This document shows, piece after piece, positions 8,453-12,819 of a stretch of 64,000 bases of DNA; position 1 is the stretch's first letter, and each line of letters begins with the position of its first letter. The position numbers were made by a program, and so were the translations under genes. A model generated the notes under the pieces. That model worked only from the letters and a program-made list of their open reading frames with translations. It was not told where the DNA came from and searched no databases. The stretch covers positions 1,504,001 through 1,568,000 of the forward strand of contig OZ253496.1 of the NCBI GenBank assembly GCA_965262115.1. Direction: 5' to 3'. This DNA comes from Nitrospinales bacterium. GTDB taxonomy: Bacteria > Nitrospinota > Nitrospinia > Nitrospinales > VA-1.

Positions 8453-8599
8453 CTCTTTGCCAGCAAGTAAAGCGATTGCTCGCTGGCCCCACGCCGAGTG
8501 GGCGGAGAACCTCCGCAGGTAACTGGCAATAGCGGTTAAATGCGCTCTGAAAGTGTGGGTAGCTATAGAATGTTTGCTCGTTGACCCCACGCCTAGTGG
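8403..8599 (+). repeat. Two tandem family B elements (8403-8501, 8502-8599)
   Basis: Terminal hairpins CCGGCGAGCCGCCGG / CCACGCCGAGTGG and GCGGAGAACCTCCGC / CCACGCCTAGTGG, with inner TRGCAA..TTGCT. Confidence 0.8.
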
Positions 8600-9080: not shown

Positions 9081-9199
9081 CGGTTGAAAAAGGTTTATTC
9101 GCGAGAGTTACAATCAGGCGGTGGCCGCCGCTTCTTTATTGGGCGACGGGGTATTACCCGCTGATCGGGATGCAGAGACTTTTGCTGCTGCTGCTGTTT

Positions 9200-9242
9200 A
9201 CGGGTAGAAGGGGTAATCTCGGGTTATGCAAAGCTCTCGTTT
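9200..9242. repeat. 43-bp exact copy of 12781-12823
   Basis: ACGGGTAGAAGGGGTAATCTCGGGTTATGCAAAGCTCTCGTTT at both sites. Confidence 0.9.
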
Positions 9243-11007: not shown

Positions 11008-12452
11008 GGGCCTGTTGCCCAAAGGGTTGCCGTGAAGGGTTGCTGATATTAATTTTGTGTATTTCTTACGAATTTTCTTTTCTAAATTGAAATCCCAAAA
11101 CCCAGATTCATTCCTCCCCAAGTTGAAGCCTGCAAGCAGTTTTTGAATCGTTGTACGACCTTCAGTGCATGACTGTGAATCGGTTTTTTCAGGTGTTGGA
11201 TCATTCGTTTGATGTTTTGAATGGATGCGGTCAGGTATTCTTGAATCTGGATCAGCCATAATCTTCGCCACCGTGCCCTTTTGAATCCCAAGGGCACCGA
11301 ATATGCGAATGACCGTTCCATAAGATGCTGTCTCGTTTTCAGGTCTTGTTTTCCTTTTGGGGTCTTTGCCATTGCGCGCATTTCTTCGAGGTCGTCCTGA
11401 CGATCAACCCGTTGGATCGTGCGTCCGGTTGCACTACGTGTGCATTGGGATTTTAGTTCGCAGGCATTACCGTCGTCTGCTCTGGCGGCGTAATACATAC
11501 GCTGCTCTTTTAACCGGCAGGTCTTCAGCCGCAAGCGTTTGCCCACCGGGCAGATATAGGTATCGCTTTCAGGGTCGAATGTAAATGCGCTGTTGGAAAA
11601 TATTCCATGACGTTTGCCGTCTGTTTCCTGACTCTTTTTCAGGTCGGGCATATGGGGTTGAATGCCCATATCTTTGCAGGCAAGAAAGTTTTCCACCGTA
11701 CCGTATTTACTGTCGGCCACTGCGGTCTTCGCTGACATCCCGGTATTTTCCTGGTGCGCTTCCAGCATGGCACTGAACCGATGCGAATCGTCTACATCGC
11801 CACGTGTCACCTCAGTCGTGGTGATCACTTCCGCCGCCGGATCCACCGAACGATGTACTTTATAACGCAAACGCGAACCCCCGCGCGGCACAATCGCCGC
11901 ATCCGGAGCGGTCGTAGAACGGTAACGAACATTAACTTCTCTGCGTACCCGCCGATTATTGGATTCCTCCGGTTCGCCCAGTCTCTCACAAAGTTTCTCG
12001 TAACCCTTGGTTTCGATAATACGCTGGGATTAGGAATCACAGTGTCCAGACCATAACCCAGAAACCAGAGCCAATCCATCCGCTACGGAAGCGTACGCAT
12101 CAACTCACGTTCGGAACGAACGTTGTAAAAGATGAGCAGCAACATCAGTTTTAGCATCACCGGAGGCGGAACCGATTCGTTGCCATTGTGGCCGTACTTA
12201 TCCTTTACTTGTTCATACACAAAATCCAGGTTCAAAACGGAAGAAACTTGCCGCAACTCGTGATCTGGAGGACTCCGATCTTCAAGATTCACGGCCTAGT
12301 TAAAGAATACGCTCTGGGACGGGGTTTCGCGTTTCATCATGGGAATGACTCCCGGAAAAAAAGATTAAAACTGTAGAAGAACAAAAACTAGCCAGATAAA
12401 TTATAATCCTTATAAACCCACGCTTCTATCAAAAGGTTTGGGCAACAGGCCC
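11008..12452 (-). mobile_element. Degenerate IS1182-family insertion sequence
   Basis: Perfect 16-bp TIRs GGGCCTGTTGCCCAAA (11008-11023) and TTTGGGCAACAGGCCC (12437-12452) enclosing transposase fragments. Confidence 0.9.
11082..12340 (-). pseudogene. IS1182-family transposase pseudogene
   Basis: N-terminal SVPPPVMLKLMLL..SERELM..WLWFLGY; C-terminal VADSKYG, YICPVG, MERSFA; in-frame stops, frameshift and internal deletion. Confidence 0.88.
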
Positions 12453-12467
12453 AAAAGACTTGACAGG

Positions 12468-12819
12468 GAGAGCTTTGCATAACCCGAGATTACCCCTTCT
12501 ACCCGTTCCGGGCATGAAGTTTAAGGAAGAGGACATCACATACCCGTTCTACCCCTGCGGGGCACGAACCGATGGAAGAAATATCACACGCTCATGATGT
12601 TATAGGTTGGGGATATCACAGGCTCGCGAAGGTTAAGGAAAAATATCACGCCTTCGTCACCTTGTTCCTCAGAATGACAAAATGGCCCAGTATTGTCATG
12701 CTGAGCTAGTGATATTTGACCTTTGAATTCTTGCCCCGTAGGGGTATGTGATATCCTCTTCCTTAAACTTCATGCCCGGAACGGGTAGAAGGGGTAATCT
12801 CGGGTTATGCAAAGCTCTC
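12468..12819. repeat. MITE-like composite with 78-bp inverted arms and six nested or tandem family A units
   Basis: 12468-12545 is the reverse complement of 12742-12819 with one mismatch. Confidence 0.85.

What the first reader, a model, noticed from the sequence alone, without database searches (positions are those of the whole stretch)
12468..12819. Russian-doll nesting of family A inside itself, within 78-bp inverted arms
Seen: host GAGAT^CCTTCGTC..CTCAGAATGAC is split by TACCCCTTC[unit 12500-12540][TACCCGTTC[unit 12550-12588]CGCTCATGA..ATATCACA]GGCTCGCGAA..ATATCACG. Units lie in the hairpin loops of older units, after TTC. The mirror arm holds two more tandem units (about 12708-12787). 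The outer ends are GAGAGCTTTGCATAA / TTATGCAAAGCTCTC, 15 bp from the IS1182 TIR. Inference: serial insertion history, since the split units have decayed hairpins (GGCTCGCGAA, CGCTCATGA), possibly carried as one MITE.
Basis: partly seen in the sequence, partly recalled or inferred. Interest (0 to 1): 0.7.

Follow-up and report, generated by a model that had tools for sequence, protein, structure and literature searches.

The report
Self-nesting 40-base DNA units inside MITE
A small jumping element in a Nitrospina-type marine bacterium has collected six copies of a 40-base hairpin DNA unit, nested inside one another, and the unit's matched end bases and a recurring two-base change beside its insertion site suggest that it likely moves as a tiny single-stranded circle by an enzyme not yet found.

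Summary
Observation confirmed. 12468-12819 is one copy of a 128-bp IS5-type MITE family (79 end pairs, 55 with 9-bp target duplications) holding six 39-41-bp hairpin units, two of them split by younger ones; removing them restores the empty MITE (78/80). (1) The 78-bp arms are not the element's ends: the normal right end was replaced by a copy of the left end at a 24-bp block shared by two units, and this copy lacks a target duplication. Contigs of other runs support both outer junctions. (2) Split units are not decayed: the same GG>CT change, 3-4 bases past the insert, marks 17 of 22 loop insertions and 0 of 223 unsplit units, and recurs in a second host repeat and in relatives. New clue: unit base 16 is complementary to the last base (272/300, 142 expected), as if the ends join into one stem, probably a single-stranded circle. 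An IS110 (26 copies) targets the unit; no mover was found. The scan already reported the unit family elsewhere in this genome (four notes); the closest published kind is the cyanobacterial SDR repeats.

The parts
12468..12490 (+). Left end of the IS5-type MITE (15-bp TIR 12468-12482, then up to the first insertion site)
12491..12499 (+). Unit U0, 5' part (oldest unit; split in its hairpin loop)
12500..12540 (+). Unit U1, intact, 41 bp; 4 identical copies in the genome; in tandem before U2
12541..12549 (+). Unit U2, 5' part (sits in U0, itself split in its loop)
12550..12588 (+). Unit U3, intact, 39 bp, innermost
12589..12620 (+). Unit U2, 3' part, with the GG>CT signature at 12591-12592
12621..12650 (+). 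Unit U0, 3' part, with the GG>CT signature at 12623-12624
12651..12707 (+). Body of the MITE: a pair of REP-like palindromes of the type that also flanks small GIY-YIG genes in this genome
12708..12746 (-). Unit U4, 39 bp, at the family's usual second site; 15 identical copies
12747..12787 (-). Unit U5, 41 bp, chimeric: native tail, hairpin head copied from U1; switch within 12754-12777
12788..12819 (-). Second left end (copy of 12468-12499) in place of the normal right end
11008..12452 (-). IS1182 copy, identical over 1445 bp to a second copy in the genome; lacks its left target duplication
12453..12467 (+). 15-bp spacer, also found after the other IS1182 copy; half of a hairpin that ends a mobile small-endonuclease cassette
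9200..9238 (-). Solo, truncated third copy of the same left end

Best explanation
The locus is an IS5-type MITE that took up six copies of an independent 39-41-bp mobile unit, one after another and partly inside each other, and then likely swapped its right end for a copy of its left end; the unit itself likely moves as a small single-stranded circle. Shown: the MITE family, its 9-bp duplications and size ladder; exact insertion of units without duplication; nesting; two left ends and non-matching flanks here; complementarity of unit base 16 with the last base; the GG>CT change 3-4 bases past the insert. Inferred: (a) a template switch or recombination in the 24-bp block shared by U1 and U5 made the second left end (42-66 bp copied), and a transposase made the junction at 12819, since the arm stops exactly at the TIR; (b) the unit's two ends are joined in an intermediate in which the last two bases extend the terminal hairpin from 4 to about 8 base pairs, with the cut inside that stem, the same layout as an integron cassette whose first bases pair with its own att site; (c) integration pairs the incoming DNA with a few target bases beyond the insertion point and can overwrite them, which leaves the GG>CT mark. 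The enzyme acts in trans and was not identified; a small nuclease acting on folded single-stranded DNA is the most likely kind.
For: MITE: 79 end pairs, 55 with at least 8 of 9 duplicated bases; 61 copies with this body fall at about 128, 168, 208, 247 and 288 bp (23, 13, 12, 6, 1 copies); 330-bp and 209-bp composites recur at two sites each (97.9% and 98.6% alike) with different duplications; broken IS5 transposases carry the same ends. Unit: 304 copies with head and tail among 359 heads; 24 of 178 distinct rejoined flanks occur exactly elsewhere in the genome, at most 3 for any boundary implying a duplication or loss. End pairing: 141 of 160 distinct units in this genome, 126 of 141 units from other genomes, 272 of 300 pooled against 142 expected, with three control position pairs at or below expectation; among near-identical units that differ at both positions 125 pairs keep the pairing and 17 do not; the rare G-C form held in 4 of 4 listed matches. 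Signature: CT in 17 of 22 loop insertions, 0 of 223 unsplit units; in a second host repeat 5 of 7 filled and 0 of 91 empty sites; alleles absent from empty paralogues cluster at +3 (20), +4 (20) and +5 (8) in 73 sites, at most 3 at each of the other 17 positions; also in G019 (2 of 2), G013 and G015. Arm: family members with U4+U5 continue into a normal right end; U5 has U1's head and the native tail; other fold-backs of left ends occur in the genome.
Against: No circle or junction was observed; covariation shows pairing, not a circle. 118 near-identical pairs differ at only one of the two positions. No mover found: no Y1 transposase in this genome or in two other unit-rich, near-complete ones; no replication-strand bias (113 of 241, p 0.37). 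The signature is not universal: 5 of 22 loop sites and another GG-bearing host keep GG, and most CT-flanked inner units are closest to other CT-flanked ones, so the number of independent origins may be small. A test for donor flank being carried along was not side-specific (right flank p 0.001, left flank p 0.005). Isolated units do not fold better than shuffles.
Confidence: 0.55

Rival explanations
1. The units spread mainly by gene conversion or homing from filled to empty look-alike repeats; one or a few founder insertions carried the GG>CT change, which was then copied with the insert. True new insertion is rare.
For: Unit subfamilies are tied to particular host sites; most CT-flanked inner units cluster together; related units share flanks on both sides; one split unit has a 3' half that does not match its own 5' stem variant.
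Against: About 100 unrelated flank contexts in one genome; identical or near-identical units in unrelated hosts; the same change at the same offset in two unrelated host repeats; homology beside the insert is only about 9 bp; does not by itself explain the end pairing.
Confidence: 0.25
2. The unit moves through an RNA intermediate, as I recall was proposed for cyanobacterial SDR repeats; the end pairing is RNA structure and the flank change comes from priming or repair.
For: Exact insertion, no duplication, self-nesting and structure-type covariation; no replication-strand bias.
Against: The only reverse transcriptase match in the genome is broken; the pairing partner of base 16 lies where it extends the stem only if the ends are joined; no Rfam match. 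Expression was not tested.
Confidence: 0.1
3. The resident IS110 recombinase, whose guide loops match the unit's hairpin, also moves the unit by a side reaction.
For: 26 right ends and 25 of 26 left ends of this IS110 abut unit halves; its left end folds like a bridge RNA; IS621 is reported to release single-stranded circles and to use half-matched sites (10.64898/2026.08.31.748434, abstract only).
Against: Its core lies inside the hairpin, not at the unit's ends; units have no duplicated core; this IS110 was found in only 4 of 23 genomes of the genus while units are in 20 of 23; it behaves as a parasite of the unit.
Confidence: 0.07
4. The 78-bp arm is an assembly artefact.
For: Long palindromes among hundreds of repeats are hard to assemble; no contig spans the element, and the inner switch point was not seen in the listed rows.
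Against: The left-type end is joined to the unique right flank in three runs from two studies, and read depth fits both arms; the arms differ at one base in a way that marks a switch point.
Confidence: 0.03

Closest known systems
Small dispersed repeats SDR1-8 of Nostocaceae (Elhai et al. 2008, Genome Res 18:1484; paper not held; SDR5 passages seen in PMC4390886 and PMC5861425; the rest recalled)
   Same: Very small non-coding repeat, precise insertion, no known enzyme; recalled: nested in its own copies and in minitransposons, compensatory changes.
   Different: 39-41 bp against a recalled 21-27 nt; Nitrospinota only; no fixed target such as HIP1; end-to-stem pairing and flank change are not things I recall for SDRs. 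Sequence relation not tested.
IS5-family MITEs (non-autonomous TIR elements)
   Same: TIRs shared with an IS5 transposase gene (NF033581), 9-bp duplications, no ORF, tens of copies.
   Different: Body built from REP-like palindromes and loaded with units; this copy has two left ends and no duplication; only broken transposase copies were found.
REP, REPIN and RAYT systems; GTAG- and CGTC-tagged repeats (PMC3116915, PMC3733652; passages seen)
   Same: Short hairpin repeats in intergenic DNA, insertion into or next to existing repeats, targeted by an IS110 as IS621 targets REPs (PMC11208160, passages seen).
   Different: Single units move, not inverted doublets; hairpin at the very end with a 4-bp core stem and a long variable tail; no GTAG tag, no RAYT or other Y1 gene.
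IS200/IS605 peel-and-paste elements such as IS608 (PMC5027513, abstract and passages seen)
   Same: Precise insertion without duplication; hairpin plus base pairing at the hairpin foot; single-stranded circle inferred here.
   Different: One hairpin instead of two ends; no fixed 4-5-base target; no lagging-strand bias; no TnpA; flank bases change.
Integron gene cassettes (from general knowledge)
   Same: First bases of the inserted piece complete the piece's own terminal hairpin only when its ends are joined; head-to-tail arrays.
   Different: Stem of about 8 bp is too short for two integrase sites; no gene; no conserved att boxes tested or seen.

Membership tests
IS5-type MITE (outer element) | Terminal inverted repeats | tested here: met
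   79 end pairs
IS5-type MITE (outer element) | Target-site duplication | tested here: inconclusive
   met for the family (55 of 79 with at least 8 of 9 bases), not met for this copy (5 of 9)
IS5-type MITE (outer element) | Ends shared with a transposase gene | tested here: met
   IS5 (NF033581) copies with the same TIR, all broken; activity not tested
IS5-type MITE (outer element) | Short, non-coding, multi-copy | tested here: met
SDR-like very small mobile repeats (unit) | Precise insertion without duplication in many contexts | tested here: met
SDR-like very small mobile repeats (unit) | Nesting in own copies and in minitransposons (feature recalled) | tested here: met
SDR-like very small mobile repeats (unit) | Length 21-27 nt, Nostocaceae (length recalled; range from PMC5861425) | tested here: not met
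   39-41 bp; all 80 listed loci from the genome collection are Nitrospinota
SDR-like very small mobile repeats (unit) | Sequence or structure shared with SDR1-8 | not testable with these tools
   paper not held
REP/REPIN with RAYT | RAYT (Y1 HUH) gene in the genome, flanked by the repeat | tested here: not met
   none in G000, G007, G013; 7 of 23 genomes of the genus have a Y1 match, unrelated to unit number
REP/REPIN with RAYT | GTAG or CGTC tag at the hairpin end; inverted doublet as the moving unit | tested here: not met
   no tag; single units insert
IS200/IS605 non-autonomous derivative | Fixed tetra- or pentanucleotide target | tested here: not met
   weak bias only (best position C in 68 of 100 contexts)
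IS200/IS605 non-autonomous derivative | Lagging-strand orientation bias | tested here: not met
   113 of 241
IS200/IS605 non-autonomous derivative | Single-stranded circular intermediate | not testable with these tools
   only inferred from covariation; the runs laid were contigs
IS110 derivative | Short core present at both ends after insertion | tested here: not met
   the unit is the target of an IS110
Integron cassette | attC boxes and an IntI integrase | not tested
   four tyrosine recombinase matches in the genome were not classified; the stem is too short by inspection

The most novel reading that the evidence does not exclude
The unit is a new class of minimal mobile DNA: a 40-base single-stranded circle with one hairpin serving as both ends, integrated without duplication by an uncharacterised enzyme that overwrites two or three target bases, and abundant enough that an RNA-guided IS110 has specialised on it as its target.
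Probability: 0.3. Interest if true: 0.8.

Novelty: new variant of a known kind. Interest (0 to 1): 0.55.

Why it matters
How repeats under 50 bases spread without a duplication and without a known transposase is an open question (SDRs, CGTC-tagged REPs). This family gives hundreds of filled and empty sites, two sequence rules that any mechanism must explain (end-to-stem pairing; a fixed change 3-4 bases past the insert) and a direct test (look for the tail-to-head junction). A precise, scar-light integrase for 40-base cargo would also be of technical interest. The locus itself, with its two left ends, is an ordinary rearranged MITE copy.

Tried and rejected
Mover searches: Y1 transposase absent from G000 and not tied to unit number in the genus; Y2 search uninformative because no control genome rang; the reverse transcriptase match is a broken fragment; four tyrosine recombinase matches, not classified; the REP-flanked small GIY-YIG protein is in 14 of 23 genomes, including the six most unit-rich but also unit-free G011 and not G004: a candidate only. 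No orphan unit ends around an ORF other than the IS110 insertions. No unit position pairs with a flank position like a guide. Target structure: only a weak tendency to lie between a 5' and a 3' arm. Replication-strand bias: none. Carried-flank test: not side-specific. Partner ends with this copy's flanks as duplication: none exact in the genome. Orthologous empty site: relatives keep the right flank but differ to its left; in G013 a 12-base match to the left flank lies 137 bp upstream, but the same sequence follows the other IS1182 copy, so the size of any deletion is uncertain. Rfam: one chance-level hit. Viral contigs: one match. Literature: nine searches; the one with the term Nitrospina listed no paper containing it among the 10 shown, so absence from print is only weakly tested. 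Two reviews had no passage on SDRs or nesting. No supplements were read. The metagenome scan, protein structure tools and RNA-model tools were not used.

Full report
Observation. The arms are 78 bp, 99% complementary, and the stretch folds far better than shuffles. The 352 bp parse into a left end, six 39-41-bp units (U0 split by U1 and U2, U2 split by U3; U4 and U5 in tandem on the other strand), a 57-bp body and a second left end; taking the units out gives an 80-bp stretch that matches an empty family member at 78 bases. Contigs of public runs carry both outer junctions and the nested middle, and their depth fits two arms. None spans the element and the inner switch point was not among the rows shown.

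Setting. The window lies in a 2.68-Mb single-contig genome. The unit pattern is in 19 of 22 other genomes of the genus and in 0 of 18 genomes of other genera searched; all 80 listed loci of 122 from the genome collection are Nitrospinota records. The locus is intergenic, between an IS1182 and rpsB.

The outer element. The 15-bp end is the TIR of a MITE family: 235 end-like matches, 79 pairs, 55 with at least 8 of 9 duplicated flank bases. The 61 copies with this body form a ladder at about 128, 168, 208, 247 and 288 bp; six longer ones hold other inserts too. Unit-loaded composites of 330 and 209 bp occur at two sites each with their own duplications, so loaded MITEs do move whole. The same TIR bounds IS5-family transposase genes, of which only broken copies were found. 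The family has distinct left and right ends. This copy has two left ends and flanks matching at 5 of 9.

The arms. Other copies with U4 and U5 run on into a normal right end. Here U5 has the native tail but the head of U1, and the change-over lies in the 24 bases 12754-12777 that U1 and the native neighbour share. So 42-66 bp were copied from the left end; the rest of the 78 bp is family likeness. A fold-back template switch, or recombination between two head-to-head copies with loss of the DNA between, would both give this; I cannot choose. The arm stops exactly at the TIR, which points to a transposase-made junction (inference). A third identical left end, truncated, lies at 9200-9238 and is also in the reads. 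Relatives keep the right flank but not the element; the left 15-bp flank also follows the genome's second, identical IS1182 copy, so the two flanks were never one target site.

The unit. About 300 copies (304 of 359 hairpin heads have a tail; a stricter catalogue of 241). Rejoined flanks match empty sites exactly for 24 of 178 junctions, with no sign of duplication or loss. Of 241, 30 sit in the loop of another unit, 27 at three other internal sites, 20 in tandem and 164 in other hosts. A double nest of the same build occurs in another genome (L072). Target bias is weak, with no replication-strand bias.

Clue one: end pairing. Besides the stem pair (positions 6 and 10), position 16 covaries with the last base as Watson-Crick partners: 141 of 160 in this genome, 126 of 141 in units from other genomes, 272 of 300 pooled against 142 expected, all four pair types seen, the G-C form in 4 of 4 matches of a narrow search. 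It is the strongest signal after the stem pair in 98 independent contexts. The two bases are 23-25 apart; if the tail is joined to the head, the last base stacks directly on the stem and the base before it adds one more pair. I infer a joined-end intermediate, too small to be double-stranded. Against: 118 near-identical pairs differ at one position only, and relatedness was controlled by nearest pairs, not by a tree.

Clue two: the split units are not decayed. Both U0 and U2 show GG>CT three and four bases past the insert. So do 17 of 22 loop insertions and 0 of 223 unsplit units, with different inner and outer units. An unrelated host repeat shows the same change at the same offset in 5 of 7 filled and 0 of 91 empty sites, and relatives show it in both hosts. 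Across 73 sites with at least 8 empty paralogues, new alleles pile up at +3, +4 and +5 only (37 of the 40 counts at +3 and +4 that are G>C or G>T come from these two hosts, 35 being exactly those changes). It is not universal, and many marked inner units are related to each other, so inheritance with conversion remains a real rival. A test for carried donor flank was positive on both sides and so not decisive.

An IS110 parasitises the unit. A 316-residue IS110 recombinase element has 26 right ends, all followed by the 3' half of a unit with varying tails, and 25 of 26 left ends preceded by the 5' half. Its left end folds into two stem-loops whose loops match the unit hairpin and its own end, as described for IS621, which targets REPs around a CT core (PMC11208160, passages). 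Related copies in G013 and G019 abut unit halves too. The unit is its target, not its derivative.

The mover was not found. The best remaining candidate by co-occurrence is a small GIY-YIG protein flanked by the host-type palindromes, with no direct evidence.

Comparison. The outer element is a new member of the IS5-type MITEs. The unit works like the SDR repeats of Nostocaceae (Elhai et al. 2008; not held; SDR5's precise insertion into HIP1 seen in passages of PMC4390886 and PMC5861425; nesting and size recalled). It fails the membership tests for REPIN/RAYT (PMC3116915, PMC3733652, passages), IS200/IS605 (PMC5027513, passages) and IS110. Earlier notes of this scan report the same unit family at other places in this genome; one gave me the SDR lead. 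Their short texts do not mention the end pairing, the flank signature or the IS110 targeting.

Verdict. Real and correctly observed. The locus is an ordinary, rearranged MITE copy; the unit inside it is an unusual very small mobile element with two testable mechanistic rules and no known enzyme. New variant of a known kind; interest 0.55.

Noticed in passing
G000:C1, e.g. L165:270-1500 and L163:5960-7330: IS621-like IS110 (316 aa, 26 copies, 15 with a full-length reading frame) inserted only in the hairpin of the 40-bp unit; its left end carries a bridge-RNA-like fold whose loops match the unit. A natural target and guide pair.
   Followed up: partly
window 9200-9238: Solo truncated left end identical to both arms, present in reads; a TIR-like 11-mer and a short trinucleotide run lie just upstream (9176-9199).
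   Followed up: partly
window 11008-12452 and G000:C1:1580774-1582218: Two identical IS1182 copies in opposite orientation; the second sits in the end hairpin of a mobile cassette with a 4-bp duplication, the window copy shares only its right flank.
   Followed up: partly
L020:2570-3039, L021:2095-2600; five or more copies in G000: Small endonuclease-like gene (resembling DUF559, label recalled, not scanned) flanked by long C/G-rich hairpins, multi-copy and mobile; present upstream of rpsB in two relatives.
   Followed up: no
L002:1400-1950, L004:1440-1750: Small GIY-YIG genes flanked by REP-like palindromes of the type that forms the MITE body; a possible dedicated enzyme for CGTC-type repeats, which PMC3733652 describes as lacking one.
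   Followed up: partly
G000:C1:898435 and 1391100-1391300: Other MITE left ends that fold back on themselves inside a unit, suggesting frequent template switching at these hairpins.
   Followed up: partly
window 8470-8599, 21016, 24727, 31401, 52855 (family D3): A second dispersed hairpin family that also serves as host for the unit and shows the same GG>CT flank change when filled.
   Followed up: partly
G000:C1:49600-51030: Broken reverse transcriptase fragments that look non-bacterial by eye; could be an import or an assembly contaminant.
   Followed up: no
L040:1501-1539: One unit in a viral contig, near a small gene end; the only viral match.
   Followed up: no
G000:C1:2542220-2542413: A MITE inserted inside a unit, with its own 9-bp duplication: nesting runs in both directions.
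   Followed up: no
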